Assembly: GCA_900128585.1 (NCBI GenBank)
Contig: LT642191.1
Span: 1 to 37,774 of the forward strand
From: Stramenopiles sp. TOSAG23-3
Lineage: Eukaryota
Direction of reading: 5' to 3'
DNA: 37,774 nucleotides
Shown piece after piece: positions 17,201 to 37,177 of this stretch. Made by a program: the position numbers and the translations under genes. The stretch's first letter is position 1, and each line of letters begins with the position of its first letter. The notes under the pieces were generated by a model. That model was not told where the DNA came from. It saw only the letters and a list, made by a program, of their open reading frames with translations, and did no database searches.

Positions 17201-19441
17201 AACTTCTTGCAGACGTTGAAGAATATGAACGTAACGTCTAGCTTGCACATTGCAAAAAATATTGCTGCGCTTCTCTCCTTTTTGTTCCGCGACAACAAAA
17301 TACGGCGAAAGATTTCCATAGACGGGATCGGCGTAATGCAGAAAATATACTCCATGGACGACGACGACACGACGTTGCAATGCAGTGAAGCACTGACAAG
17401 ATTGAGTTGCGATGACGTGACCACCAAGGCCGTCGTGGAAAACGATGTTTTAAAGATGTACTTGACTCTAGCACAGAGGAAGGCGGTGGAGACGAGATCG
17501 TTGGTCATCCAATCGTTGCTTCATTTGTCTTTCAATGAAAAATACATAGGATCGCTTGCGAAGCAAAATGCCCTTGGTGTCGTCAAATCGTTGGTGCAGT
17601 TCGAAGACAGTGACCTGGAAAAGCACTCGTTCCTTTTGGGGATATTGCGCTCCTTTGTACTAGGCGACCAGAGAGCCCTGGTAAAGGGTTACGGGGTGAT
17701 CGATGTATCCAATATTGAAGTGACAGAAGAAAACAGTTTGCACCACAATCTTGCGAGGAGCGGGATCATAAAAACGGCAAGCAAGATATGGTCGCGGTTG
17801 GACAAGACGAATTACGGCTATTATATTCCAAAGGTTATTCAGAGGGACATTGCCGTAGTGCTGTCCAAGACAATCTACCACGTAAGAAATCAGTATGCCT
17901 CGATGCTAAACGACGGCTTGCTACCCATATTGCTTTTTCTGACCCTTCATGGGGACGACTTTTCTAGTCGCCAGGCCGTCGTTGCACTCGCCAATTTATC
18001 CCACGATGGTTCGATCAGACAGAGACTGATAGACAACGAAGTAGTTGAAACCTTGGTTGAACTTTTGAAAACCATCAAAACAGATAATGGAATTCAGCGT
18101 GACTGCGTCACTGCTTTTTGCAACCTCTCCTACTGCCTTGAACGTGGGAAGTTTTTGGTCGACTGCGGTGTTTACGACATGTCTGTGACCATGGGGAACC
18201 AATCGGACGAGTACATCCGGTCATGCTGTGGAAAAATTCTCACCAACCTGTCAGTGCACGCCGACAACACCCATGATGGTTCTGTCGCCGCGTTATTAGA
18301 GCTCTGCATGCCCGGAATGTCCACACCATCCAGAGACAAAAAGGCTGAGATACGAAGAAGCACTACTCAAGCGCATTTGGTAAAATCTCAGCGTACCTTG
18401 GAAGATTATTCTGAACCAGAAGGAACATGGGCCGATGCCCACGAATATTTTAGTAGCAATTGCAAGTTTAAGACCAAAGTTGAGGCCACTTTGGAAATTA
18501 ATTTTGCGAACGATGGCTCCGAAGAAGAGGTAGACACATCATGGGTTAAAGAAGACGCAGGCTCCGCCAGTGGCCCACCACCATCTTACCCTCCAACGAA
18601 AGATGATGAGGAAAAAGTGGCGAATGAACTGCGATCTGAACTCGTAAGCCGCAAGCAAGTACTGGCCAGCTTAATAGAAGAAGATATAGGGAACAGCACG
18701 GACGAAGGGGCGAACTTAGATATCGTCAAGTTTGACAAAGTCCAACCAACCCTGAGCCAATTGTGGTACGACCCCATCACAGCATTTGAAAAAGTTGGCC
18801 GCACTTTTGAAGGGGATAACGACAACGAGGAAGACTTCGATTACGACAAAGAAAGCGATACTTTTGAGGAGGATGAGACGGAAAATGTGGACAAATCACT
18901 TGGAAACCAGAAAAAGGCAGCGTCTTCTGGCCACAGCACTCGCCCCACGACATCCGCCCACGACAGTCGGGACAGTTCCCGTAGGAGTGGGGGTTCCCGC
19001 CAGCGCTCTAACAATTCTTCCGATAAAGCACAAAAAAACGATGCTAGTGGGGGATTTAAAGAACAGGAAGATGGCGAAGTAGATTTTGAAGAAGCGATAG
19101 CTAGTGATTATGGATCGCGACAGTCCCGCAGAAGTGTCGAGGAGTTGATGACTCTCAACAAAGAATCGGCACAAAAAAACAGAGGCGGGGTTTCGTTTGC
19201 ATCGGAAGGCTCGGCCGTGTTGGAGGAAAGCGAGGCCACTGCAACCCCTGCAACACGAGGAGACCAGTCAAACGTGTCATTGCTTGAAGCCGAAGGCAGG
19301 CCAACCTCCACCCCAAGCTTGCATTTCGTGGATAATGCCCTCTCAGCGGGTCTTTGGAATGAGACACCAAAGATTAAATGGGATAAATCGGAAGAGGGTG
19401 GAAAGAAAAGAGGTGGACCAGCCCATCGACGGAAGAAGTGA
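14282..19441 (+). CDS. Large armadillo-repeat protein (Vac8-like ARM array) with disordered acidic C-terminus
   Basis: Many ARM-type helices (CAIALHNLS, ALSNLA, CSIAICNLS, CCKALCNLS, AVVALANLS, CVTAFCNLS) in a 1719-aa uninterrupted ORF. Confidence 0.85.
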   Translation: MNGKQSRDLSEPSSSSAASSYRGMSSKISVIEGIRQKAKREVEFQLHAFETKSRYRGHDVETVKHVRRTKVHRMSADDEKELRKQVAHERAHRMHKQRLLNGIKRHQQLAEERFPEYSMDQFVDSASSKRSSEKKKLQNRALAKLHRQVDLEHAMKVLPHYNGDLFGTHRSYLAGVMYMSRMTAAKKHKSRNPWDNGNENGGYDTAEDKKVIEFLENKQNVAKSLCNLSWHKSNSRKLVHEGGLKVLVEMSDLDDFSIRLSCAIALHNLSRDPDVQADLFENYVVETIARLSQTTGESAQLLLAHCIGALCALSAVQGYEAQMVREGALKAIDVALESPQTLEVQKLLTSCLLNLTTCFDEATSYPGWERVINSCRSAISSYLVDTRAKHHVASALSNLALYENHRARMISEGMVKDLTEFYEMFDSNNSVSSAVFSDAEAAIASTMNYLASCHGELKSAVVRQNGVQLLVRISRSKNNLTRQRCIMALNSLAMDTHGEGRAAGQVIGPIVQLSDSRNPTTRFRCTAAFRSMSSRQGSRKQMMKSNVVSVLLRMINTEINLSEDVWSASICNCTITLCNLLISVDTRARAIEGKAFDSVIMLLQRQQKLQEQQICCDAILTLTNTAEVAGEMRKASTLGVIVRLLASPDPGIIKSVVLILKALCKDKKTCTTFCALRPDSLPYLVNLLTTPDEEIVLNVLIVISMAIGTTSMRKRMVQAGVESIVYLCGGANKEIQIWCAAILCALSFTPECRVPIIQAGAAKGLSIVSGIKEDVNQHRCSIAICNLSAEFECRLRMIEDGVTTSLISLSSAHHESIRFNCCKALCNLSCTVGNEMDLVQAGTLPELMLTALVRSEYPITKLVCIKTIANLIADDTIDILLEQGIAWAMMAATTASFAETDDEPLEDGLQIAGNVYCVVAKYDVGIEKLIDEPGVLRSLAVLMQSESTDTRGYAWKVLKLACQHPCQSRLMQENFLQTLKNMNVTSSLHIAKNIAALLSFLFRDNKIRRKISIDGIGVMQKIYSMDDDDTTLQCSEALTRLSCDDVTTKAVVENDVLKMYLTLAQRKAVETRSLVIQSLLHLSFNEKYIGSLAKQNALGVVKSLVQFEDSDLEKHSFLLGILRSFVLGDQRALVKGYGVIDVSNIEVTEENSLHHNLARSGIIKTASKIWSRLDKTNYGYYIPKVIQRDIAVVLSKTIYHVRNQYASMLNDGLLPILLFLTLHGDDFSSRQAVVALANLSHDGSIRQRLIDNEVVETLVELLKTIKTDNGIQRDCVTAFCNLSYCLERGKFLVDCGVYDMSVTMGNQSDEYIRSCCGKILTNLSVHADNTHDGSVAALLELCMPGMSTPSRDKKAEIRRSTTQAHLVKSQRTLEDYSEPEGTWADAHEYFSSNCKFKTKVEATLEINFANDGSEEEVDTSWVKEDAGSASGPPPSYPPTKDDEEKVANELRSELVSRKQVLASLIEEDIGNSTDEGANLDIVKFDKVQPTLSQLWYDPITAFEKVGRTFEGDNDNEEDFDYDKESDTFEEDETENVDKSLGNQKKAASSGHSTRPTTSAHDSRDSSRRSGGSRQRSNNSSDKAQKNDASGGFKEQEDGEVDFEEAIASDYGSRQSRRSVEELMTLNKESAQKNRGGVSFASEGSAVLEESEATATPATRGDQSNVSLLEAEGRPTSTPSLHFVDNALSAGLWNETPKIKWDKSEEGGKKRGGPAHRRKK

Positions 19442-20136: not shown

Positions 20137-21780
20137 ATGAAACGAGTGTATGATGCCATAATTGTGGGAGGCGGTCATAACGGCTTGGTCACCGCGGCAT
20201 ATTTGGCGAAGGCGGGGAAAAAAGTGTGTGTTCTTGAAAGCCGTGCCCTCGTAGGCGGTGCGGCAGTGACGGAGGAGCTTGTACCAGGGTATAAATTTTC
20301 AAGGGGGGCATACTTGGGGGGTCTTTTGCGCCCTGCAGTCATCGAAGAACTCGAGCTTGAGACAAAGTACGGTTTGCGGTTTTACCCCCGAACCCACTCG
20401 TCGTTTACGCCGCTCCAGTCGGGAGAGTCGCTTTTAATGGGACAAAGTCAAGAGCTAAACCAACGGGAAATTTCCAAGTTTAGCAAAAAGGATGCCGCGG
20501 CGTACCCGAAATACGAAGCGCAGTTGAAGCGATTTGCAAATATTTTAGAAGATACGCTGGATTCGATCCCACCGGATCCGGCCAGCATGGCGGGGAAAGA
20601 GCGGGCGGAGCTGTTTGAGCATGCAAAAACTTTGGGTGTCGGAGGCAGAAACATGGCGAAGCTTGGCAAAGAAATGGGGACGTTTTTACAATTTTTGACC
20701 GCACCAGCTTCGCAATGGCTTGATATGTGGTTTGAAAGCGAGCCTCTAAAGGCAACGTTGGCAACCGACGCCATCATTGGAGCCCACGTTGCGGCCAGCT
20801 CGCCGGGGACAGGATATGTTTTGCTTCACCACGTCATGGGCGATTGGGCTTACGTTGAGGGGGGCATGGGGTCGATACCAAACAGCATTGCCAAGGCGGC
20901 GAAAGCGTTCGGGGCGGAGATCGAGACCGAAGCTGTCGTCGAGTCTATAGATGTGTGTCCGACCCAAGGGAATGTGCGGGGAGTGACCTTGTCGACCGGG
21001 GAAACATTGTCAGGGAAAGTTGTCGTTTCGAATGCAACGCCGGACAAAACATTAATGGGGGACGCTAGTTTGTTGAAAGAAAAGGATCGCGCGTCGTTCT
21101 TACCGGACATGTATACCAAAAATATGTCTTCCATTAGCTACCAATCGTCCACGACGAAAATCAATGTCGCCGTCGACCGTGTTCCCCAGTTCTCTTCCAT
21201 TGGGAGAGAGGGCAATGTACCTGGGCCGGAACATGAAGGGACAATTCATATCGGGTGTGAGTCAATGGAATCGTTGCATGCTGCGTACAGGGACGCAGAG
21301 TACAGCAAGGTGCCGAGTATGACGCCCCTTGTCGAAATGACACTGCCTTCTGTTCTTGATCCCACCTTGGCACCAGAGGGCCACCACGTCGTCAACCTAT
21401 TCATACAATACACGCCGTACACTCCATCGGACGGGCCTTGGGACCAAGCGAGCAAACAAGATTTTTCCGAGAGGATCTTTGGTTTGATCGACCAGTACGC
21501 CCCGGGATTTAGCGAGTCCATCGTCGGCGAACCCGACATTTTGACTCCCCCCGACCTTGAGAAGACATTTGGTCTGACGGGTGGGAACATCTTTCATGGA
21601 GAGATGACATTGGACCGACTCTTCATTACACGCCCGGCATCGAGCGGGGCTTCCTACCGCGTGCCTGGGGTCAAAGGCCTATATTTGTGTGGAGCTGGAA
21701 CCCACCCAGGGGGAGGAGTCATGGGGGCAGCGGGGAGGAATTGTTCGCGAGCAGTCCTCCGAGACATGAAGAAGGGTTGA
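20137..21780 (+). CDS. PYROXD2: Pyridine nucleotide-disulfide oxidoreductase domain protein 2 (phytoene-desaturase-like FAD oxidoreductase)
   Basis: YDAIIVGGGHNGLVTAAYLAK, GGAAVTEE..PGYKFSR, YVLLHHVMG, GLTGGNIFHG, GLYLCGAGTHPGGGVMGA. Confidence 0.9.
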   Translation: MKRVYDAIIVGGGHNGLVTAAYLAKAGKKVCVLESRALVGGAAVTEELVPGYKFSRGAYLGGLLRPAVIEELELETKYGLRFYPRTHSSFTPLQSGESLLMGQSQELNQREISKFSKKDAAAYPKYEAQLKRFANILEDTLDSIPPDPASMAGKERAELFEHAKTLGVGGRNMAKLGKEMGTFLQFLTAPASQWLDMWFESEPLKATLATDAIIGAHVAASSPGTGYVLLHHVMGDWAYVEGGMGSIPNSIAKAAKAFGAEIETEAVVESIDVCPTQGNVRGVTLSTGETLSGKVVVSNATPDKTLMGDASLLKEKDRASFLPDMYTKNMSSISYQSSTTKINVAVDRVPQFSSIGREGNVPGPEHEGTIHIGCESMESLHAAYRDAEYSKVPSMTPLVEMTLPSVLDPTLAPEGHHVVNLFIQYTPYTPSDGPWDQASKQDFSERIFGLIDQYAPGFSESIVGEPDILTPPDLEKTFGLTGGNIFHGEMTLDRLFITRPASSGASYRVPGVKGLYLCGAGTHPGGGVMGAAGRNCSRAVLRDMKKG

Positions 21781-28701: not shown

Positions 28702-31011
28702 TTATAAATTGCAATTTCCATGCATGGACGCTGACGCATTTGGCAAATACTCCCATTGATCCCCCCAAAAACCGGCTGCCACAACACCAGCGAGAGATGT
28801 TGCCCCCCCCCTCCCCGTTTTATACCCCTTCCCCGCAATAACAAAATCAGGTAGGCGATGTTGCCAGCTATTCGTTTGAAACATATTGGATCGAAGCAGC
28901 TCTACGGCTTTATCGAACCCGCTGAGGGTAGTCCCAGCAACAATTGCTGCGAGTCCAGGCACTCTGGGCCCAATGCTGACGATGGCAACTCCGGGCTCAG
29001 TGAAACTGCAATGTTTACCAATACCAAATCCACCTTCAATTTGACTTTGAATGTCTTTCGAACGAATTGAGCGGAATGGAAAAAGAACAGATCTTGATAC
29101 AGAATTGCTCTGTTTACCACCAAAAAGAATGACATTTTGAGCCAGGACTGTGTCCAGATGAACGAGTTTTTTGTCACTCACGACTGGGACAGATCCACCA
29201 ACCACGGTAGCCCAGGAATTTGCAAACTTGATGGCCTCTTGTTTGTAGTGCCTTGTTACCTTGGCCACGCCCGTTGTGCCATAAACAATAGCAAACGGGG
29301 CGGCAAATACTCGTCGAACAGGGCCACTGTTTCTCTCAATATCGTCTGACCGCCTGCCTTCCTTGCGCAAGTCGTCGGTCCATTCCCTTCCAACTTGTTC
29401 CTTTCGAACATAGTCTCCATAATCTCTCTTCTTTGTTTTCAACAATTCAAAACTTTGACCATCCAGTACAACTTTTTTGAACGAGCCCATATATTGGTTC
29501 AGATTGAGGATACGTAAACGTGCAACATTCACTGTTTGGATATTGATTGTGAGGAATTCTTTAGAATATGACATCTCAAAGCTGGACATTTGACCAGGGA
29601 CCTGCTGCGCAAGGACTCGAACGCCCGCGCTGCTTCCACAAGAAACTGGATTTGCACAGCTGAAGTAAACGGGTTGTTCGTACTTCCGATCCTTACTCTC
29701 CCCTTTGCGAAGGACCCTTTTCCAAAATTTGCGGAGCTGCCCATCGTCGACAGCTCCCCCATCGTTGGTGTGCACAGTATCCCACCACCAATGTTCTTTA
29801 CCCTCTAAAAATACGATCCGTTTTTCAACCCCAGCAATAGCCTTCCACAGCACGCCCCTGGGCTTCTTGATCTTGTTTTCCGACCACGTCACCCCAGCGG
29901 AAGCAAAAAGGGTGCCCATGTGTTTCGTAGCTCGGGGGTCTATGACTCGGTCTTGAAGGCCCGTTCTGGCAAAAAATGGGAGGTTGAGTAAATTTTTCAC
30001 CACCGCATCTCCACGATACTCAGTCACAGAGCTGTCGACGACCTTCCAGATCTGTTCCATTTGACCGTGGACCTCTGCTGGCTTCTGCATTTCGGTAGTA
30101 CCAAGGGTGGCCATCCCAGCCAACGTGGCCACACCCACCGCCATGTCCGGATAATGGGCTCCAAAAAACCAGGCACCGAATCCACCGTTGCTGTGCCCCG
30201 TGAAAATTACTTTCCACGGCCGGTTTGCTACGGTCACACGGTCGAAAGTCCACCTTGCAGCTAACTCTGACAGACTTCGGAGTGCCCTGAGAGCATGCCA
30301 GTGTCCGGGTCCTTGCCAGTTAGTAGCATGTGTTCCTCTTCCATGCGGGGCCAAAACCCACAAATCGGGCTTTGGCCTGTAGCAATCAGCCTGGCGCTGT
30401 GCCGTTACATCCATACCATGAGTAGATAATAAAACCGCGCATCCATCTTCAGGACAGCCGGTCCGATTGCCATACTTTGAAGATACTTTTGGAAATTTTG
30501 CTGCAGCAATCTGGGGGGAACCGTCGACGTCAAGGAAGACAAACGTAATTCGGTCGTGAATGGTGCGGCACAGGAGCTTGTAGTATTTTCCTGTGGCAGC
30601 AGTGTCTCCAATATTAACCTCCAGCCGAACCTTGAAAGGACACGCCTCCTGGGGTATAGCCGTCCCATTTACTTGCCGTAGCGGTGCGTGCAAACTTACC
30701 CGCTGTCCAGCTTTCACATCAATTGGCACCTCCGAAACAGTTGGCAAAATAAAGCGAGACCCTTTCACAGCAAGGCGTACGCCCTTGACGTTCCGCCTAC
30801 CACGATTTACAACTCTCAAAAAAATAATTCCACCAAAAACTCGCCCTTCGACAACGTCGGGAAGTTCATGACCAGTGTTCCAGTCATCGTAGGCAAGAAG
30901 TGGAAATATCTCGAGATTCTGCTTTCCCTTACGTTTCCTTCCTCCTGCAGTCAAAACACAGAGAGCCCAGCAGCAGAGAACAACAATGGACAGAAAACGC
31001 GTTGTTACCAT
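28702..31011 (-). CDS. Secreted/membrane-anchored alpha/beta-hydrolase (peptidase S9/esterase-like)
   Basis: N-terminal hydrophobic signal, LSTHG, nucleophile elbow GHSNGG, G..DRVI (Asp candidate), HWW (His candidate), C-terminal PFAIVYGT..NVILFGG domain. First ATG is at 31011. Confidence 0.75.
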   Translation of the reverse strand: MVTTRFLSIVVLCCWALCVLTAGGRKRKGKQNLEIFPLLAYDDWNTGHELPDVVEGRVFGGIIFLRVVNRGRRNVKGVRLAVKGSRFILPTVSEVPIDVKAGQRVSLHAPLRQVNGTAIPQEACPFKVRLEVNIGDTAATGKYYKLLCRTIHDRITFVFLDVDGSPQIAAAKFPKVSSKYGNRTGCPEDGCAVLLSTHGMDVTAQRQADCYRPKPDLWVLAPHGRGTHATNWQGPGHWHALRALRSLSELAARWTFDRVTVANRPWKVIFTGHSNGGFGAWFFGAHYPDMAVGVATLAGMATLGTTEMQKPAEVHGQMEQIWKVVDSSVTEYRGDAVVKNLLNLPFFARTGLQDRVIDPRATKHMGTLFASAGVTWSENKIKKPRGVLWKAIAGVEKRIVFLEGKEHWWWDTVHTNDGGAVDDGQLRKFWKRVLRKGESKDRKYEQPVYFSCANPVSCGSSAGVRVLAQQVPGQMSSFEMSYSKEFLTINIQTVNVARLRILNLNQYMGSFKKVVLDGQSFELLKTKKRDYGDYVRKEQVGREWTDDLRKEGRRSDDIERNSGPVRRVFAAPFAIVYGTTGVAKVTRHYKQEAIKFANSWATVVGGSVPVVSDKKLVHLDTVLAQNVILFGGKQSNSVSRSVLFPFRSIRSKDIQSQIEGGFGIGKHCSFTEPGVAIVSIGPRVPGLAAIVAGTTLSGFDKAVELLRSNMFQTNSWQHRLPDFVIAGKGYKTGRGGATSLAGVVAAGFWGDQWEYLPNASASMHGNCNL

Positions 31012-31745
31012 GAACAACCGCACCCAAACCACGATACAGAAAATAATGTATAATGCAAAAAAGTTTCCTGTTAAAATCAGCGATCATATCTTCCATTTAT
31101 TGTTGACTCTATATAGTCTTTTCAAATACTAGATGACCATGTGAAAAGAATGTAATTTAAAACCATGGCGACACAGATCAATTATGAAGAAAAAAAAAGA
31201 AAAAAAAAAAAAAAGAAGGGAAAAATAATAAAAGAGAAGAAAGAGGGGGTTAAAAGTCGTCTATTATTGTGTATTGTATAGACACAGCATAGTACAAATA
31301 ATAGATCTTCATAAAAAAAAAGATTCTCGCCGCCCTTCGCTCTCATACCTCGTATTTGTTGTTTGTTTTGGCTTTTCCTCTGCTCTGCTGTTTAATGTTT
31401 AAAATGGATTACATTTCTGCTGTATCTTTGAATTAGTTTCAGTTGTGTGTTCGTATATTAATAATTGGAATAATCCAAATTATTTATATGGGAGGAGTAT
31501 TATTATTTTTTTTTAATTATTATTTTATTATATTTTAGATACAAACGACGGTTCAAAATGTTCTACAATAATAAAGATTAGCCACATGTAAAATCAATTA
31601 GTTCGATTAAAACACGGCAGCCTGATATTCGTCTACTGTTTCCCGTAGAGTATAAAGGTACGGATTGCATATCATTCTCATCCATTTTTTGATAATTTGT
31701 ACTCTACTAACAGGTGGTGCGATACCGGACTGTTTACTCTTAGAG

Positions 31746-34700
31746 ATGGTGCAGAAGAACAAACAGCGTTCGAAGTCGAAACGGGTGCTCAAAAAGACTG
31801 TGCTTTCTGGGGAATCAGTTACAGGGCAACCGTCAGGGGCGAAGCCAGGATGGATATTCAAAACAAATAAAATTGCGCTTCTTTACGATTGTCTCCTATT
31901 CACAGCATTCTCTTTTTGCTTCATATTCGGCATGTCACTGTACACACTAATACTTGGGTTGACGCTGACCACAGTGAAGTGGGCATTGTCGCCCCCGGAT
32001 CGAAAAATTAAGAAGGAATTTTACGACACACCAAGGCGTTTTCTATTAACTGGTTCGGCCAGTGGCATGTCTCAACACTTAACTAAAACGCTTTTATCGC
32101 GCGGACATTATGTATGCGCGACAGACATAATGTATACCCAGCTTCTTCAACAGTACCCCGGAGAAAACAGACCAACGAATTTATTACTACAGAAGTTAGA
32201 CGTTACGAATTCAGACAACTGGGACGAGGTAGTTGGTTCGTGTGTTGAGGTGTGGGGAGGGCTTGATGTTGTCTTCAACATAGCTGGTGTATTATGCCCG
32301 CACAAAATCCAAGACGCAACGCTTAAAGAAATTAATTTGCAACTCGATGTAAACATCAAAGGCGTAGTTTTGGGGACACGCGCGGCGGCCAGGTGCTTTC
32401 TTTCTCATCCCCCTGCCTCACCCTCATCACCACGGGGGCACATTGTAAACTTTTCGTCCATGGGGGGGTTGGCTACAGTGTCAGGGGTCACGTTGTACGC
32501 CGCCAGTAAGTTTGCAGTTCGTGGCTTTAGCTCCGCGTCTTCGAAAGACCTGGCGAACGCTAACATTGCGGTGTCGTGTTTCATGCCCGATGCCGTCCAA
32601 ACCCCAATGGTCGATTTGCAATTGAACTTCGACGAAGCGTCAATGGCGTTTTCAGGCGAGATATTGTCATTAGAAGAAGTGGAAGATTGTATAATGAATA
32701 CCGTATTGATCGAACGGCCAGTGGAGCAATGGCTTTCGTCCCGGGCGAATGTTGCAAGGTTCGGAGATATTTTTGGTGCCTCGCGTGCCGTAGCTCTTGC
32801 CGAATGGTCCATGCGTAGCACTGGCGTCCAACGCCAAAATGCTTTGATGGAAGAAAAGCACAGCACGAACCAAAGGTCTTTTGGGGCATCGCACCTCCCG
32901 GACTTGAGAACTGTCAAGAGAAACGTTTGCGTAAAGTACATCCTACGCGCCTTCTACTTTCTTTGCTTCCTAGAAATTTATTCAAGATTTCTGGTCAATG
33001 TTCGTCTAGAAACAGCGGAGGACATTGCACTCAAAAATGTTAAGAATATTGTTGGGAAGCGGTTTGTAGTGACTGGTGGGTCAGCAGGAATTGGGCTTGA
33101 AACTGCCCGAGTGCTGACCAAATATGGTGGAATGGTTACCATTGCCAGTCGGTCCCAATACAGGGGGGAGCTGGCAGCCTCTTCTATAAACGGACAGGCC
33201 GATAGTGTAAGTGGTGGGCAAGCAACGTTTGAACAGCTTGACTTGTCATCGTTTGATTCCGTTAACAAATTCGTAGATCGTCAATTGCACGCGCAGCAAA
33301 AAACGGACGTTTGGATTTTAAACGCTGGGCGTATATCTCCAAACTTTGAACGGACAAGCGACGGTGTAGAGTCGACCTTGCAGGTGAACTTTCTATCTCA
33401 CCAGCTGCTGATGGATCGTATTTTACGGAAAGAAGGGAAGAACAACAATACAGAGAAAGGACCAACGGTGGTCTCGTTATCTAGCTGGGGGCCTGCACGT
33501 TACTCTAAACTTGGAAACCTTGTTAATGGGGGTCTTCACCATGTACTGAAGAGGGACGAGTATCCATTTATCTTGCCCGGGGTCTATGGCATTTCCAAAC
33601 AGGCCACGGTCCGCTTTGCACGGGAGATATTTAAGCGTTTTGGTGCGCGTTCGTTCAGCGTTCACCCGGGGCTAGTCTCAACAAAATTGGGAACAACGCG
33701 CGGTAATAAACTGGAAGAATACGGAGCTGCATTATGGTGGTACATGGCATCAAAATTTACAAAAGTAAAATCAGTTCAAGAGGGCGCTGCAACGACAGTC
33801 CTGTGCGCCACCGACCGAGCAATTGACGGCAGGGGATTGTTCTACAGCGACAACGCGCTCGCAGAATACCCAAAAGACGAAGACAACGACATTTCAAAAA
33901 TTCACGACCGAGCAAACAGAGATGCAAATGCCTACGATGAAGGCTTAAGAATTATCAACGATGCGTTGGCTGGAAAGTACCGGAAGACTGGTACCGGCGC
34001 GGACAATACAATTAGCACCGTAGGTGTTTGGTTTAATGTAGACAGTTCTGGCACAGCCACAACAACCCTGGTTTCCGTAGTGTTGCACGTTATAGTGCAT
34101 CGTATACTCTTTCTCATTGCCGAGTATCTAGTGCAATCGAAGCTTGGTGAAAATCAAAAGATATCATCAAAAAATATCCGGCCAGTCATGATAAGTTTGG
34201 AACAGCGCCGCTCGACGTATTCTGCGATTATCGACGGAATGTACTGCTCATTCCTGTTGAAGTACGGACTAATTGGGAGCGGTTCGTACCTTCTTGGTGG
34301 TTTCATTGTCCTGTTTTGGACGGACTTTCATTTTTATGTGACGCACCGTTTAATGCACATGTCGACGTTTCTGTACAAGAATGTTCATTACATTCATCAC
34401 CAAAGTCACAACCCAAATGTTTGGAGCTCATTAAGTTTTCACCCAGTAGAAGCATTTATTTTCTTTTCAGCTTACTTAATTGTTTTAATCGTTCCAATGC
34501 CAACAGTGGTTTGGTGGGCCTTCAAGTTTGGGATGGTAATTGGACCGCTCCATGCACACATTGGCTACGATTTGGGAGCAATTGTGAAAGGCCCAGCCCA
34601 TCACTATTTGCATCATGCATTCAAAGATGGCAATTATGGTGGATTTCCAACGGGAATCTGGGATAAGTTGTTCAACACTGAATTGGACAGCAATGGGCAC

Positions 34701-36410
34701 AAAAAGGTGTCCAGCCCCGAGAGTAAATATTCACCGTCTTCCTTTCGAAAATGTCTTTTCTTTTTTCTCCTCTCCCAATTTGTATTCGATTACAATATTC
34801 CGCTGTGGACCATAGGGGCCGGATCGGTTTTGGTTTGGATTGCGTTGCTCGATGGCATGCTTGTTATTTTTCCAGGGGCATTTGAGCGCAAGTGGGACCA
34901 AAAAAAGGTTTTCGTTGTTGGTCTAAGTCGTACAGGGACAACATCCATCACAGAAGCACTTAACATGCTCGGCATCCGCACTCACCACTTTTGCGGTCCA
35001 TTGGTGAAACTTGCCTCTGGGCATGGGGGTAGCCATAAAATTGTGGAAGCCTACGTTGACAATTTGGACGGCCACACAGATATCTCACCGACAATCGTTG
35101 CGGAGGAACTTGCTGAAAAATACCCCGAGGCACGCTTTATATACACAACACGACCACGCGACGAATGGGCCCATGCGCTCGTGCGTTTTGTCAGTGAAGA
35201 GCCGAGAAAAACATTGTTCAAAAACCACCCAACGCCTTTCAATTTTTACAATGCGGCGTACGGTGAGGGATGGTCTTCCTACGATGCAGTAGAATGGCAG
35301 CACATTCATGATGCCCACGAAAAGCGCATGCAGAATTTAAGAAAGCAAGTAGGCACCAAACGCTTTTTGAAGATTGATATCACTGCCCTTGGCAAGAAAG
35401 GCAAAGACACAACGCTATGGAATATACTGGGGGATTTTCTTGACGTGGATGTTTCAAATGCCCCTAAGAAATTTCCCCATCGTTATGTGTTTCAGTATTC
35501 GGCGATTGATCAACCAAAGCGACAAATTAATTATTTGTTGCAACGCATAGTGTCAAAAACCTGGGTCCTGTTATTTCTGTTTGCATTGGTGTACGGTGGT
35601 CGATTCTTTGATTCGGGTCAATGTACAAGAGCATGCCGTGTCTGGAACGGAGAATCAAAGATGAAGCACGGAAAACCCATACCAATACTTGCGGGGACGT
35701 CCGGAAATTGGTTCGAACCCCCCGATGTTTCCGGGGTTCGTATTGGTTGGCAGACGTGCCAATGTTTCTCAAGCGAAAGTACAAGAATCTTGAAGGGAAG
35801 ACGAATCCCCCGGCTTCACTCACCAATTGAAACAAAAGATCAATGGTGGTTTCGCCCAGAGACAACGGCGGTGTGCAGCGACGAAGGCAAGGAATACGAC
35901 CATGCGAAAGATGTCCCAACTGGAGACACCACCGTTTCCAATTGCGGTCGTTGTGGAAAGTGCAATGTTCACGATGCAGATGCGATGCACATCCGCAAAA
36001 GCACGTTGACTAAGCGCGCTTCTGTTGGTGCAATACTGTACTTGTTTTTTGGTCAAGCTGCGCATCGAATCTTTTTTCGATCGGGAATTGTAGGATTTAG
36101 TCAAACCTGTGCGGAGTGTTGGCTGGAGGCAACAAGGTGCAACCTTGCAAGCTGCGCTCAGTACTGCTTGTTTGGCTGGGAGAATCCTCTGTCGGTACAA
36201 AGTACAACAGATGGCACGAAACTGAATGCTTGCATGCATTGTGATGAGATCTATTGCAGTGCTTATTACTTGCAGTCATGCGGTACAAATCGAAGGGCCG
36301 CCGGTGTTGTCACAGATATCCTGCGCCCAGAAAAAGATGTTTGCGAGGCTGCTCTCAGAGGGTATGATGCGAGGGCAAGGAGGCAAGGAGGAGGCAAGAG
36401 TTCGCCGTAG
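31746..36410 (+). CDS. Multidomain membrane enzyme: SDR + SDR + sterol desaturase/fatty-acid hydroxylase + sulfotransferase + Cys-rich domain
   Basis: SDR1: TGSASGM (32049), NIAG, YAASK (32496). SDR2: TGGSAGIG (33072), NAG, YGISK (33585), VHPGLV. His boxes HRLMH/HYIHH/HAH/HHYLHH..WDKLF (34344-34673). Sulfotransferase: KVFVVGLSRTGTTS..ALNMLG..YPEARFIYTTR (34905-35480). Cys-rich tail with CDE..C and NRR. First ATG is at 31746, with no internal stops. Confidence 0.85.
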   Translation: MVQKNKQRSKSKRVLKKTVLSGESVTGQPSGAKPGWIFKTNKIALLYDCLLFTAFSFCFIFGMSLYTLILGLTLTTVKWALSPPDRKIKKEFYDTPRRFLLTGSASGMSQHLTKTLLSRGHYVCATDIMYTQLLQQYPGENRPTNLLLQKLDVTNSDNWDEVVGSCVEVWGGLDVVFNIAGVLCPHKIQDATLKEINLQLDVNIKGVVLGTRAAARCFLSHPPASPSSPRGHIVNFSSMGGLATVSGVTLYAASKFAVRGFSSASSKDLANANIAVSCFMPDAVQTPMVDLQLNFDEASMAFSGEILSLEEVEDCIMNTVLIERPVEQWLSSRANVARFGDIFGASRAVALAEWSMRSTGVQRQNALMEEKHSTNQRSFGASHLPDLRTVKRNVCVKYILRAFYFLCFLEIYSRFLVNVRLETAEDIALKNVKNIVGKRFVVTGGSAGIGLETARVLTKYGGMVTIASRSQYRGELAASSINGQADSVSGGQATFEQLDLSSFDSVNKFVDRQLHAQQKTDVWILNAGRISPNFERTSDGVESTLQVNFLSHQLLMDRILRKEGKNNNTEKGPTVVSLSSWGPARYSKLGNLVNGGLHHVLKRDEYPFILPGVYGISKQATVRFAREIFKRFGARSFSVHPGLVSTKLGTTRGNKLEEYGAALWWYMASKFTKVKSVQEGAATTVLCATDRAIDGRGLFYSDNALAEYPKDEDNDISKIHDRANRDANAYDEGLRIINDALAGKYRKTGTGADNTISTVGVWFNVDSSGTATTTLVSVVLHVIVHRILFLIAEYLVQSKLGENQKISSKNIRPVMISLEQRRSTYSAIIDGMYCSFLLKYGLIGSGSYLLGGFIVLFWTDFHFYVTHRLMHMSTFLYKNVHYIHHQSHNPNVWSSLSFHPVEAFIFFSAYLIVLIVPMPTVVWWAFKFGMVIGPLHAHIGYDLGAIVKGPAHHYLHHAFKDGNYGGFPTGIWDKLFNTELDSNGHKKVSSPESKYSPSSFRKCLFFFLLSQFVFDYNIPLWTIGAGSVLVWIALLDGMLVIFPGAFERKWDQKKVFVVGLSRTGTTSITEALNMLGIRTHHFCGPLVKLASGHGGSHKIVEAYVDNLDGHTDISPTIVAEELAEKYPEARFIYTTRPRDEWAHALVRFVSEEPRKTLFKNHPTPFNFYNAAYGEGWSSYDAVEWQHIHDAHEKRMQNLRKQVGTKRFLKIDITALGKKGKDTTLWNILGDFLDVDVSNAPKKFPHRYVFQYSAIDQPKRQINYLLQRIVSKTWVLLFLFALVYGGRFFDSGQCTRACRVWNGESKMKHGKPIPILAGTSGNWFEPPDVSGVRIGWQTCQCFSSESTRILKGRRIPRLHSPIETKDQWWFRPETTAVCSDEGKEYDHAKDVPTGDTTVSNCGRCGKCNVHDADAMHIRKSTLTKRASVGAILYLFFGQAAHRIFFRSGIVGFSQTCAECWLEATRCNLASCAQYCLFGWENPLSVQSTTDGTKLNACMHCDEIYCSAYYLQSCGTNRRAAGVVTDILRPEKDVCEAALRGYDARARRQGGGKSSP

Positions 36411-37177
36411 TCGTCTAGTTATCGGTGGTACGTACCGTGCCTTTTTTCTTTATGTCGAGGGAAGGACACGTAATGAGTATGTGAGTGTTAAATTTCAGAC
36501 ACAGCAAGGTTCTGGTTGCGGAAATTCTAGTACTAAAATACGTATACTAACTGGTACATTCGAGTACGAACCACCTCGAACATTTAATAAATCCGTTTTT
36601 GGATTTTCTAGAATCGACCGTGTGACGTGTGACTCGCTATTTTTTTACCTGTACGGTGGTACCTGGTATTACCTGCAGACACTGACTTTAATACTATTAT
36701 TAATTAATACCACCAGTGTTGTACAATGTGTAGTTTGTTAATCAGGTAGGTACAGGTACCGGTATTAATATAATATTGAGCGTCGACGACCGTCGTACCT
36801 AAAATCTACAACAGTTTTGCTTCTCTTCTGACACTCCTGAAGTTGTATTCCTGCCTTCAAGTGCCTTCCACATACTAATACAAAAAGTGAAGATCTGTAC
36901 TTACATGTAACTCAAAAGATTTAGTCACTTTCCACGCCCCATTGGTACCCCAAACACCACTTTGCCCCAGAACCAAAAACGACTCCCGCGAAGGTGCCCG
37001 GAAAACATTGTTTAAAAAGTTGCAAAACGGTATGTAACCACCTATCCAAGATAAACCGACGTTCCACTCGTATAAAGACAAAGTTCATCTTTTTTGTTTG
37101 TAACGGCTCTACTGATAGATAGGGGAGTTTGAACAAGTTCTCGAAGTGGTTCGTTCCAAACTAAATCTTTTCATCAC

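What the first reader, a model, noticed from the sequence alone, without database searches (positions are those of the whole stretch)
31746..36410. Five-domain single-chain enzyme: SDR-SDR-sterol desaturase/hydroxylase-sulfotransferase-Cys-rich, a possible sterol/lipid sulfate assembly line
Seen: one uninterrupted ~1550-codon ORF holds two SDR domains with YxxxK motifs, a membrane di-iron enzyme with its His boxes, and a sulfotransferase-type domain (GLSRTGTTS), separated by TM segments. Established: an acidic residue after beta-2 (SDR1, ATDI) indicates NAD(H) preference and a basic one (SDR2, ASRS, retinol-dehydrogenase/WWOX-like) indicates NADP(H). The HH.S.NP..W..SFHPVEA pattern is typical of ERG3/SC5D-like members of the fatty-acid hydroxylase superfamily. 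Inference: desaturation/hydroxylation, NAD-linked oxidation plus NADPH-linked reduction (e.g. 3-OH epimerisation) and then PAPS-dependent sulfation could all occur in one ER protein, yielding a sulfated sterol or lipid. The oxidase+dehydrogenase+ketoreductase trio loosely recalls ERG25/26/27, although SDR1 looks classical rather than ERG26-type. I know of no characterised protein with this architecture.
Basis: partly seen in the sequence, partly recalled or inferred. Interest (0 to 1): 0.88.

Follow-up and report, generated by a model that had tools for sequence, protein, structure and literature searches.

The report
Five-module membrane lipid-tailoring enzyme with sulfotransferase
A marine picoeukaryote encodes one very long membrane protein that strings together two dehydrogenases, an iron oxygenase, a sulfate-adding enzyme and an unknown cysteine-rich outer domain, probably to modify and sulfate a membrane lipid whose identity is still open.

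Summary
Window 31746..36410 (+) is one stop-free 1554-codon ORF. Pfam finds adh_short twice, FA_hydroxylase and Sulfotransfer_4 in the stated order. The last ~265 residues match no Pfam family.

It is a real fused gene, not a read-through. The same module order recurs in metagenomic and EukProt proteins 39-78% identical. A 40%-identical relative has short introns inside domains, not between them. Modules are far better conserved than linkers. Catalytic motifs are kept. RNA-library contigs from 3 studies cover parts of every module and bridge 2 of 4 junctions.

The sterol-specific reading is not supported. The oxygenase's nearest relatives are unnamed stand-alone protist FA_hydroxylases, none called ERG3/SC5D.

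The sulfotransferase is the S. mansoni/SgdX2 type. The Cys-rich tail belongs to a large unannotated family of TM-anchored proteins (430 clusters). Its confident model has no PDB fold match.

Charge flanks suggest SDR1, the oxygenase site and the sulfotransferase face the cytosol, while SDR2 and the Cys domain face the lumen or outside.

Best reading: a multi-step lipid hydroxylation, redox and O-sulfation enzyme of unknown substrate. It is an unreported architecture built from known enzyme kinds.

The parts
31746..36410 (+). Complete CDS, 1554 codons plus stop, no intron needed
   Evidence: The start is supported by the orthologue N-termini in A1. RNA-library contigs show no joints.
31746..31982 (+). 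Basic N-terminal tail (res 1-41) and a ~37-residue hydrophobic stretch (res 43-79), read as a two-helix hairpin
   Evidence: Kyte-Doolittle scan. In the window protein the up-flank is net positive (+3) and the down-flank +1; the flanks of P0004 (+1/0) and P0005 (0/0) are near neutral. L005 shows two ~22-residue hydrophobic runs split by a short polar loop. The hairpin reading is inference.
32034..32780 (+). SDR1: classical short-chain dehydrogenase with TGSASGMS, Asp after beta-2 (CATD), NIAG, and an N/S/Y/K tetrad (DVNIKG, NFSSMGG, YAASK)
   Evidence: Pfam adh_short 100-289. Best PDB sequence hits are acetoin reductase, Rv2002 and 3alpha,20beta-HSD, E 7e-22 to 3e-14. Motifs are kept in the orthologues that contain this region. 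It is the best-conserved module, 60-64% identity at the distance where SDR2 is 39-44%.
32925..33002 (+). Single hydrophobic segment between SDR1 and SDR2 (res ~394-419)
   Evidence: Strongly hydrophobic in orthologues (KD peaks 2.55 in P0005 and 2.46 in P0006). In P0005 the sequence upstream is a K-rich linker and the downstream flank is acidic, -1 to -3 in P0005, P0006 and P0046.
33054..33965 (+). SDR2: RDH/WWOX/protochlorophyllide-reductase-like SDR with TGGSAGIG, Arg after beta-2 (ASRS), LNAG and YGISK
   Evidence: Second adh_short stretch plus KR 440-513 and Epimerase 441-635. NCBIfam PRK06196 433-723 and PRK06197 430-705. PDB hits 3rd5 and protochlorophyllide reductase B. Motifs kept.
34056..34685 (+). 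Di-iron membrane oxygenase (FA_hydroxylase superfamily). One extra N-terminal helix (771-799) precedes the four-helix core. Invariant His: H862, H867, H871, H881, H884, H885, H938, H952, H953, H956, H957
   Evidence: Pfam E 3.4e-23. His residues are invariant in A1. AF2 model pLDDT 89.7. The only PDB relative is Scs7p: Z 6.9, rmsd 4.8 over 175 residues, next row Z 2.9.
34737..34883 (+). Two hydrophobic segments (res 998-1016 and 1022-1046) read as a hairpin that returns the chain to the cytosolic side
   Evidence: The up-flank is 0 to +4 (positive in 5 of 6 sequences). The down-flank is +2 to +6 in 5 of 6 sequences.
34905..35519 (+). PAPS-type sulfotransferase domain (Sulfotransfer_4, 'S. mansoni type') with P-loop GLSRTGTTS, GHTD, TTRPRDEW and FPHR
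   Evidence: Pfam E 1.1e-22 covering 209 of 215 profile positions. PDB hits: 8y9p SgdX2 at E 4.5e-6, S. mansoni oxamniquine sulfotransferase weakly at E 0.05. Motifs invariant.
35541..35600 (+). Single transmembrane anchor between the sulfotransferase and the Cys-rich domain
   Evidence: Stand-alone members of the Cys-domain family have the same anchor-then-domain layout. RNA contigs of 3 runs bridge this junction.
35610..36350 (+). Cys-rich C-terminal domain: 18 Cys, with CGRCGKC, CAECW, CMHCDE..CS and GTNRRAAGVVTDI. The family is unannotated and probably exoplasmic
   Evidence: No Pfam or NCBIfam hit. 430 representative clusters at E <= 1e-3. AF2 pLDDT 84, pTM 0.79. No PDB fold match: Foldseek 0 at E <= 1e-3, VIA best Z 4.3 of 48,161 chains.

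Best explanation
This is a genuine, conserved and transcribed single gene of an intron-poor marine picoeukaryote. It encodes an integral membrane multi-enzyme with about 11 predicted membrane passes.

The five modules, in order:
1. A classical NAD-type SDR.
2. An NADP-type SDR of the RDH/WWOX-like group.
3. A di-iron oxygenase of the FA_hydroxylase superfamily.
4. A PAPS-dependent sulfotransferase of the S. mansoni/SgdX2 type.
5. A disulfide-rich domain of an unannotated family, behind a final membrane anchor.

The most likely job is stepwise tailoring of one hydrophobic membrane substrate: a sterol-like, sphingoid or long-chain alkyl lipid. The oxygenase would introduce a hydroxyl or a double bond at the cytosolic face. 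The SDRs would interconvert hydroxyl and keto groups. The sulfotransferase would O-sulfonate a hydroxyl from cytosolic PAPS.

The predicted topology puts SDR1, the oxygenase iron site and the sulfotransferase in the cytosol, and SDR2 and the Cys-rich domain in the lumen or outside. On that topology the intermediate or product would have to cross the bilayer.

Shown here: the gene, the fusion, the family membership of four modules, the intact catalytic motifs and the presence in RNA libraries. Inferred: the substrate class, the order of reactions, the sidedness and the role of the Cys-rich domain.
For: Fusion is real:
- In one search, 7 of 12 hits carry SDR + FA_hydroxylase + Sulfotransfer_4 Pfam families. 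3 more are truncated family members and 2 are unrelated SDR proteins.
- The full-length forms P0004 (78%), P0005/P0035 (48%), P0006 (47%), P0046 (49%) and P0010 (38%) align end to end.
- Independent contigs L002 and L004 hold ~1490-codon open frames.
- L005 keeps the same order, with in-frame stops only inside insertions that interrupt the FAH, ST and Cys modules, which look like introns.

Selection acts on every module. Identity to P0005 is SDR1 64%, SDR2 39%, FAH 52%, ST 53% and Cys 55%, against 3-36% in the linkers.

Catalytic motifs: 23 of the 24 working motif patterns are found in all 5 five-module full-length forms. The 24th, SDR1 TGxxxGxx, is missed in P0006 and P0046, and the beta-2 Asp pattern also in P0046. 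Both proteins start downstream of the TG motif. P0010 lacks SDR1. The 25th pattern was my own faulty regex. His boxes and the P-loop are invariant in A1.

Expression: 24 contig pieces from 4 RNA-library runs (3 studies) lie on the ORF, 21 at >=99% and 3 at 95-99% identity, with no joints. The TM-to-ST junction is bridged by one run and the ST-TM-Cys junction by three.

Family assignments.

Topology:
- Scs7p aligns from model residue 42 onward, so helix 771-799 is extra to the four-helix core.
- Its up-flank is -1 to -3 and its down-flank +1 to +4 in 5 of 6 sequences.
- The flank after the hairpin, before ST, is +2 to +6 in 5 of 6.
- Stand-alone Cys-domain proteins have a basic, Cys-cluster tail, then one TM, then the domain.
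Against: - No experiment or genome context ties the protein to any substrate.
- The oxygenase subfamily is unnamed, and only one solved structure of the superfamily exists.
- Two of four module junctions (SDR1|SDR2 and SDR2|FAH) are not bridged by any RNA contig. The RNA data are short assembled contigs, which cannot prove one transcript.
- The topology rests on hydropathy and the positive-inside rule only. P0010 does not follow the charge pattern at two segments. The two closest sequences, P0002 and P0004, have net positive flanks on both sides of the SDR1|SDR2 segment.
- If SDR2 is really lumenal, a simple one-face 'assembly line' does not work.
- P0010 continues past the Cys domain into a tyrosine-phosphatase domain without a TM. 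That is odd for an exoplasmic domain unless it is an ORF read-through.
- P0009 (864 aa, SDR1-SDR2-FAH) and P0071 (537 aa, TM-ST-TM-Cys) may be true split forms.
Confidence: 0.55

Rival explanations
1. One reading: a sterol pathway in one protein. An ERG3/SC5D-like desaturase or hydroxylase, NAD-linked 3-OH oxidation, NADPH-linked re-reduction (epimerisation) and then 3-O-sulfation together yield a sterol sulfate.
For: The box-2 region has the general HH...FHP.E spacing that I recall for ERG3/SC5D (sequence; the spacing is recalled, not tested). Sterol sulfates are known bioactive molecules in marine diatoms (PMC5670183, abstract and passages read). SDR1's PDB hits include hydroxysteroid dehydrogenases (2hsd, 1hxh, Rv2002).
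Against: None of the 120 best relatives of the oxygenase domain is named ERG3, SC5D or lathosterol oxidase. They are unnamed protist and rotifer proteins. No PF01073 (3Beta_HSD) match. SDR1's top hits are generic, such as acetoin reductase. The genome is not held, so the presence of a sterol pathway could not be checked. The same motif spacing is, from memory, shared by several FA_hydroxylase subfamilies.
Confidence: 0.15
2. The sulfotransferase is an 'activating' enzyme. It sulfonates a hydroxyl made by the oxygenase or an SDR so that sulfate leaves, giving net dehydration, an alkene, cyclisation or substitution. The end product is then not sulfated.
For: The best solved relative is SgdX2 (8y9p, E 4.5e-6). 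It is titled 'activating sulfotransferase ... sungeidine' in a reference list (seen in PMC11677658; the paper itself is not held). The family is named after the S. mansoni enzyme that activates oxamniquine (name from PMC11625862; the mechanism is recalled). Sulfation-elimination inside multi-domain assembly lines is known from CurM/olefin synthase (recalled).
Against: There is no thioesterase or other elimination module. Identity to SgdX2 is low and limited to the N-terminal ~110 residues. Family membership does not fix the fate of the sulfate ester.
Confidence: 0.15
3. The modules do not act on one substrate. The fusion is a polyprotein or a co-targeting device for independently acting, or proteolytically separated, membrane enzymes.
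For: Each module brings its own membrane anchor, like a concatenation of anchored enzymes. The predicted sidedness alternates. Shorter forms exist: P0009 is SDR1-SDR2-FAH and P0071 is TM-ST-TM-Cys. P0010 lacks SDR1.
Against: Module order is invariant in all 6 full-length forms over 38-78% identity. Linkers keep conserved hydrophobic segments. The shorter forms may be gene calls cut by introns or contig ends, as shown for P0060's frameshifted tail.
Confidence: 0.1
4. Assembly or gene-calling artefact: neighbouring genes read through in frame.
For: The genome is compact and many database entries are prokaryote-style ORF calls.
Against: The same stop-free arrangement appears in independent contigs and divergent lineages. 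14 sequencing runs hold half or more of the sampled words. Linkers are conserved and contain membrane segments. An in-frame 6-nt indel variant occurs.
Confidence: 0.02

Closest known systems
S. mansoni oxamniquine sulfotransferase (SmSULT-OR, 4mua) and SgdX2 (8y9p), Pfam Sulfotransfer_4
   Same: Same Pfam family, with 209 of 215 profile positions covered. The P-loop G-L/F-x-R-T-G-T-x-S, a TD motif and an R...W motif align.
   Different: Those are small soluble stand-alone enzymes (253-259 aa). Here the domain sits between membrane segments inside a 1554-aa protein. Sequence similarity is low (E 4.5e-6 and 0.05).
Scs7p / FA2H (4zr0, 4zr1) and the FA_hydroxylase superfamily (ERG3/SC5D, ERG25, SUR2, CH25H and others)
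   Same: His-box di-iron site and a four-helix membrane core. Fold match Z 6.9 over 175 residues. Pfam E 3.4e-23.
   Different: There is no fused cytochrome b5 and there is one extra N-terminal helix. The subfamily is unresolved: closest relatives are unnamed ~300-360-aa protist and rotifer proteins at 35-45% identity, two of them b5 fusions. ERG3/SC5D orthology is not shown.
Sterol C4-demethylation set ERG25/ERG26/ERG27 (recalled)
   Same: A membrane di-iron oxidase working with an NAD-dependent dehydrogenase and an NADPH-dependent ketoreductase on one lipid.
   Different: Those are separate polypeptides. ERG26 is a 3beta-HSD-type extended SDR (recalled), and no PF01073 match was found here. 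That set has no sulfotransferase and no Cys-rich domain.
CurM / olefin-synthase ST-TE modules of polyketide synthases (recalled)
   Same: A sulfotransferase embedded in a long multi-domain biosynthetic polypeptide next to ketoreductase-type SDR domains.
   Different: Those are soluble and carrier-protein based, and as I recall use a different sulfotransferase family. No ACP, KS or TE is present here.
RDH11-14 / WWOX / DHRSX-type and protochlorophyllide-reductase-type SDRs
   Same: SDR2 matches NCBIfam PRK06196 and PRK06197 and protochlorophyllide reductase B. It has a basic residue after beta-2 and an N-terminal membrane anchor.
   Different: It is fused, and the predicted sidedness is lumenal. 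The substrate is unknown.

Membership tests
Classical SDR (SDR1) | Rossmann TGxxxGxG-type motif, NNAG-type motif and N-S-Y-K catalytic tetrad | tested here: met
   TGSASGMS, NIAG, DVNIKG, NFSSMGG and YAASK. adh_short E 1.4e-52. Kept in the orthologues that contain the region.
Classical SDR (SDR1) | Acidic residue at the end of beta-2, indicating NAD(H) preference | tested here: met
   CATD is present and conserved as [CA][AV][TS]D in 8 of the 9 sequences that hold SDR1. This is motif evidence only; cofactor use was not measured.
SDR, RDH/WWOX/POR-like group (SDR2) | TGxxxGIG, NAG, YxxxK; basic residue after beta-2, indicating NADP(H) preference | tested here: met
   TGGSAGIG, LNAG, YGISK and ASRS. 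PRK06196 at E 2.1e-37. PDB protochlorophyllide reductase at E 2.5e-11.
FA_hydroxylase superfamily (PF04116) | Three His boxes (8 or more His) on a four-helix membrane core | tested here: met
   11 invariant His. Pfam 82.9 bits against a cutoff of 31. Scs7p Z 6.9.
ERG3 / SC5D (sterol C5-desaturase) | Orthology to named C5-desaturases (closest named relatives, clade membership) | tested here: inconclusive
   0 of the 120 listed relatives is named ERG3, SC5D or lathosterol oxidase. No reference sequences were available for a tree.
ERG26-type 3beta-HSD/decarboxylase | 3Beta_HSD (PF01073) extended-SDR domain | tested here: not met
   PF01073 is not among the 9 families at E <= 0.1. It appears only in the unrelated hit P0014.
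Sulfotransfer_4 (PF17784), PAPS-dependent | 5'-phosphosulfate-binding P-loop, 3'-phosphate-binding R...W/S region, full-length domain match | tested here: met
   GLSRTGTTS and TTRPRDEW align to SgdX2 and SmSULT. 81.3 bits against a cutoff of 22.8.
Sulfotransfer_4 (PF17784), PAPS-dependent | Sulfate transfer to a defined acceptor | not testable with these tools
   Needs an enzyme assay.
Kazal / follistatin-like module (part of the Cys domain) | Kazal disulfide fold | tested here: inconclusive
   Only weak matches over model residues 81-115: Z 2.7-2.9, Foldseek probability 0.2.
Unannotated TM-anchored Cys-rich domain family | Conserved Cys pattern with CGxCGxC, CxxCW, CxxCDExxC and GANRRxxG..(S/T)DI, after a single TM | tested here: met
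   430 clusters at E <= 1e-3. 8 invariant and 5 nearly invariant Cys in the 50-sequence alignment. TM-then-domain layout in stand-alone members.

The most novel reading that the evidence does not exclude
A single ~170-kDa polytopic protein in abundant marine picoeukaryotes carries out a whole lipid-signal or surface-lipid pathway: oxygenation, two redox steps and sulfation. Its active sites lie on both faces of the membrane. It ends in a new-fold, disulfide-rich exoplasmic domain that receives or presents the sulfated product. That domain would define a large uncharacterised family of protist surface or lumenal proteins.
Probability: 0.3. Interest if true: 0.78.

Novelty: new variant of a known kind. 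Interest (0 to 1): 0.6.

Why it matters
Sulfated lipids and sterols act as infochemicals and cell-death signals in marine plankton (PMC5670183), yet the enzymes that make them are largely unidentified. A conserved fusion physically links an oxygenase, two dehydrogenases and a sulfotransferase. That is a 'Rosetta stone' statement that these four activities belong to one pathway, and it gives a single gene to express and assay.

The fusion also exposes two uncharacterised families. One is a protist clade of FA_hydroxylase enzymes. The other is a widespread TM-anchored Cys-rich domain (430 clusters at 50% identity) with a confident predicted structure and no solved counterpart. The sequence occurs in marine metagenomes of many studies, so the product could be ecologically relevant.

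Tried and rejected
- Whole-genome search: no genome is held for this window. Sterol-pathway presence and paralogues could therefore not be checked.
- Earlier findings of the scan: three look-ups returned nothing.
- PDB sequence searches with the oxygenase domain found nothing meaningful, either as a single sequence (one spurious His-tag hit) or as a profile (0 hits).
- Foldseek for the oxygenase model gave no hit at E <= 1e-3. Only the VIA second look gave Scs7p.
- Viral-contig scan with the oxygenase domain: 8 pattern matches, none a relative. This followed an Atlas lead to giant-virus FA_hydroxylase clusters, which stays an untested lead.
- Genome-contig scan with the sulfotransferase alignment: 63 pattern matches, none a relative. 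The patterns chosen were not the P-loop, so this says little.
- NCBIfam on the oxygenase, ST and Cys domains and on P0237: nothing useful.
- Atlas for the Cys domain: only 'hypothetical protein' clusters at 0.86-0.88, below the 0.9 lead level.
- Complex prediction of SDR2 (433-745) with the Cys-rich domain (1286-1554): no verdict, score 0.00, controls not run.
- Literature term 'SgdX2' matched grant numbers only. The SgdX2 paper itself is not held.
- RNA contigs left uncovered the stretches 32979-33053 (SDR1|SDR2) and roughly 33946-34568 (SDR2|FAH and the N-terminal part of the oxygenase).
- My regex for His box 2 was wrong and matched 0 of 14. The His residues are shown invariant instead.
- I did not attempt to name the organism.
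- Supplementary files of papers were not consulted.
Full report

The window holds one frame open from 31665 to 36410 on the + strand. The first ATG is at 31746, which gives a 1554-residue protein, P0002. The orthologue P0004 starts at the equivalent position (MGHGGKPRSKSKR versus MVQKNKQRSKSKR), so 31746 is the likely start.

Pfam-A finds the following:
- adh_short with two stretches, E 1.4e-52, best stretch 100-289. KR 440-513 and Epimerase 441-635 mark the second.
- FA_hydroxylase at 854-978, E 3.4e-23.
- Sulfotransfer_4 at 1054-1246, E 1.1e-22, covering 209 of 215 profile positions.

All exceed the curated cutoffs. Nothing matches residues ~1290-1554.

**2. What kind of genome is this?**

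The other long ORFs of the window are ordinary eukaryotic genes, each in a single open frame:
- BTB/MATH
- CwfJ
- palmitoyl-protein thioesterase
- ankyrin
- a 1719-aa ARM-repeat protein
- an amine oxidase
- a SHIPPO-repeat flagellar protein
- STIMATE
- a CID-domain protein

This is therefore a compact, intron-poor eukaryote. No whole genome is held. The neighbours give no pathway context.

**3. Is it one gene?**

A search of 5.8 billion proteins gave 12 hits. Seven carry SDR + FA_hydroxylase + Sulfotransfer_4. Three are truncated members of the same family. Two are unrelated SDR proteins.

The full-length forms align over the entire length in the same module order:
- P0004, 78% identity
- P0005/P0035, 48%
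- P0006 (an EukProt protein), 47%
- P0046, 49%
- P0010, 38%

P0010 lacks SDR1 and continues into a tyrosine-phosphatase domain.

Metagenome contigs L002 and L004 carry ~1490-codon uninterrupted frames. L005, a lineage whose long second alignment block is 40% identical (its SDR1 block is 51%), keeps the same order. Its frame is interrupted only by short stop-containing insertions that fall inside the oxygenase (twice), the sulfotransferase and the Cys domain, so they look like introns. A change of frame between the SDR1 and SDR2 blocks, with about 290 unaligned bases, may be a further intron. No unit boundary separates the other modules.

Per-module identity is much higher than linker identity. 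For P0005 the values are SDR1 64%, SDR2 39%, FAH 52%, ST 53% and Cys 55%, against 3-36% for the linkers. Every module is therefore under purifying selection.

Catalytic motifs of all modules are kept in the full-length forms, apart from two N-truncated proteins that start after the first SDR1 motif. The eleven His residues and GLSRTGTTS are invariant in A1.

**4. Is it expressed?**

Twenty sequencing runs from 12 studies hold the stretch, 14 of them with at least half of the sampled words. I laid the assembled contigs of four RNA libraries on 31400-36700. These were one oligo-dT, one polyA and two unspecified libraries, from 3 studies.
- 24 pieces lie on the stretch: 21 at >=99% identity and 3 at 95-99%.
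- 23 of the 24 lie on the ORF and touch every module. One (36555-36700) lies downstream of the stop.
- There are no spliced joints.
- The hairpin-to-sulfotransferase junction is bridged once (34823-34994).
- The sulfotransferase-anchor-Cys junction is bridged three times (35503-35695, 35520-35670, 35594-35799).
- The SDR1|SDR2 and SDR2|oxygenase junctions are not bridged.
- One RNA contig carries an in-frame 6-nt deletion at 35777. It matches the two-residue difference in the metagenomic variant P0003.

These are contigs, so they show presence in RNA libraries, not a single transcript.

**5. The modules**

*SDR1.* This is a generic classical SDR. Its PDB hits are acetoin reductase, Rv2002, quinuclidinone reductase and 3alpha,20beta-HSD, at E 7e-22 to 3e-14. 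It has Asp after beta-2.

*SDR2.* This belongs to the PRK06196/PRK06197 group. Its only PDB sequence hits are 3rd5 and protochlorophyllide reductase. It has Arg after beta-2. The NAD versus NADP reading follows the established SDR cofactor rule and is motif-level only.

*The oxygenase.*
- It has no sequence-level PDB relative.
- Its AF2 model (pLDDT 89.7) matches only Scs7p: Z 6.9, rmsd 4.8, 175 residues, with the next row at Z 2.9.
- A profile search gave 638 hits at E <= 10.
- Beyond the fusion family, the 120 listed are stand-alone ~300-360-aa FA_hydroxylase proteins. Where a source names an organism, these are protist transcriptomes, Cymbomonas and bdelloid rotifers.
- They are 35-45% identical over about half of the query. 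Two are fused to cytochrome b5.
- None is named ERG3/SC5D. Names are generic ('sterol desaturase/sphingolipid hydroxylase (fatty acid hydroxylase superfamily)').
- The ERG3-like label is therefore unproven.

*The sulfotransferase.* It aligns with SgdX2 (8y9p, E 4.5e-6) and weakly with the S. mansoni oxamniquine sulfotransferases. InterPro calls PF17784 'S. mansonii-type' (PMC11625862, passage read). SgdX2 is titled an 'activating sulfotransferase' in sungeidine biosynthesis. I saw only the title, in the reference list of PMC11677658.

**6. The Cys-rich domain**

A full HMMER scan of 1.84 billion representatives found 430 proteins at E <= 1e-3, 178 at <= 1e-10 and 11 at <= 1e-30. Beyond the top rows, which include fragments of the fusion family, most of the 150 listed are 150-420-aa proteins.

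I scanned 50 sequences, the window's domain plus 49 hits. At least 45 have no Pfam family. One (P0082) carries Sulfotransfer_4 and one carries SH3. Source names are 'hypothetical protein'.

In about half of the 22 sequences printed, a variable and often basic N-terminal tail, sometimes with Cys clusters next to the membrane, precedes one hydrophobic segment and then the domain. In the others the hydrophobic segment lies at or near the N-terminus or is missing. This is the layout of a type II anchored exoplasmic domain, and it is the same as in the fusion.

The 50-sequence alignment has 8 invariant and 5 nearly invariant Cys. It also has conserved G.NRR..G..(S/T)DI.R and CDE motifs.

The AF2 model is confident (pLDDT 84.0, pTM 0.79). 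It has no solved counterpart. Foldseek found 0 of 285 matches at E <= 1e-3. VIA-align against 48,161 chains gave a best Z of 4.3 and none >= 5. A short Kazal/follistatin-like stretch (model residues 81-115) matches only weakly. The weak helical matches include several small disulfide-rich lipid-binding proteins, at Z values the tool itself calls non-specific.

**7. Topology (inference)**

Hydropathy finds these hydrophobic stretches:
- A ~37-residue N-terminal stretch. In L005 it is visibly two ~22-residue runs.
- One segment between the SDRs.
- Helix 771-799.
- The oxygenase core.
- Two segments at 998-1046.
- One segment at 1266-1285.

The Scs7p alignment begins at model residue 42, so helix 771-799 is additional to the canonical four-helix core. 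From established knowledge of the family, the His boxes of that core face the cytosol.

Charge flanks support a specific sidedness:
- The loop after helix 771-799 is +1 to +4 and the flank before it is -1 to -3 in 5 of 6 sequences.
- The flank after the 998-1046 hairpin is +2 to +6 in 5 of 6.
- The flank before that hairpin is 0 to +4, positive in 5 of 6 sequences.

The self-consistent model runs as follows: N-terminus in, hairpin, SDR1 cytosolic, one pass, SDR2 lumenal, one pass, oxygenase with a cytosolic iron site, hairpin, sulfotransferase cytosolic (where PAPS is made), one pass, Cys domain exoplasmic.

The weak points are the SDR1|SDR2 segment in the two closest sequences and P0010.

**8. 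Mechanism and rivals**

*Best reading (confidence 0.55).* This is a membrane multi-enzyme that hydroxylates or desaturates, oxidises and reduces, and O-sulfonates one lipid. The Cys domain acts on the far side of the membrane.

*Rivals.*
- The sterol-sulfate version (0.15).
- An activating sulfation followed by elimination (0.15).
- Independent or cleaved modules (0.1).
- An artefact (0.02).

The evidence for and against each rival is given in its own section.

**9. Novelty**

Two full-text searches found no paper. One combined sulfotransferase, fatty acid hydroxylase, short-chain dehydrogenase and multidomain, requiring all four terms. The other required four of five terms including sterol desaturase, fusion and picoeukaryote.

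Five papers mention Sulfotransfer_4 or PF17784. I read passages in two of them, and neither describes this architecture. Database entries carry only automatic names such as '3-oxoacyl-[acyl-carrier protein] reductase'.

All four catalytic modules belong to known families. I therefore rate this a new variant of a known kind. The added value is an unannotated, apparently new-fold Cys-rich domain family and an unnamed FA_hydroxylase clade.

Noticed in passing
window 35777 (within the Cys-rich domain): An in-frame 6-nt deletion variant occurs in one oligo-dT metatranscriptome contig. It matches the two-residue difference (SSESTRILK versus SSERILK) in the metagenomic variant P0003. This is natural length polymorphism that keeps the frame.
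   Followed up: partly
P0010 (relative, 1625 aa): This GC-rich relative lacks SDR1. Its ORF runs on for ~170 low-complexity residues after the Cys domain into a tyrosine-phosphatase domain (PF00102), with no membrane segment between them. It is either a sixth module or an ORF read-through into a neighbouring gene.
   Followed up: no
P0009 (864 aa, on a 364-kb contig) and P0071 (537 aa): P0009 is SDR1-SDR2-oxygenase and ends right after the oxygenase. P0071 starts with the hydrophobic hairpin and is ST-TM-Cys. They could be true split forms of the pathway or gene calls cut by introns.
   Followed up: no
Relatives P0081-P0218: There is a large family of small proteins with the TM-anchored Cys-rich domain: 430 clusters at 50% identity. 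It has no Pfam model, no name and no solved fold. It deserves its own family description.
   Followed up: partly
Relatives P0237, P0248, P0255, P0266, P0299, P0318; loci L008, L010: There is a conserved clade of stand-alone FA_hydroxylase proteins of ~300-360 aa. Shared motifs are MTYG..., HFYWCHR..HPW, HSLHHKSYNPGPWSGLSMHPVEH and FHYLHHAKFECNYG. They occur in prasinophytes, Goniomonas, other protists and bdelloid rotifers, sometimes fused to cytochrome b5. No functional name is attached.
   Followed up: no
window 35850-35955 (model residues 81-115 of the Cys domain): The stretch VC..(D/E)G..Y........G..V..CG.CG.C resembles a Kazal/follistatin module. It matches those folds only weakly: Z 2.7-2.9, Foldseek probability 0.2.
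   Followed up: partly
window 28702-31032 (-): The 776-aa ORF directly upstream, divergently oriented, has no Pfam match at E <= 1e-3.
   Followed up: no
window 14282-19441 (+) and 20137-21780 (+): A 1719-aa single-exon ARM/ARMC5-like repeat protein and a flavin amine-oxidase/NAD_binding_8 protein. Both look like ordinary eukaryotic genes. Neither was examined further.
   Followed up: no
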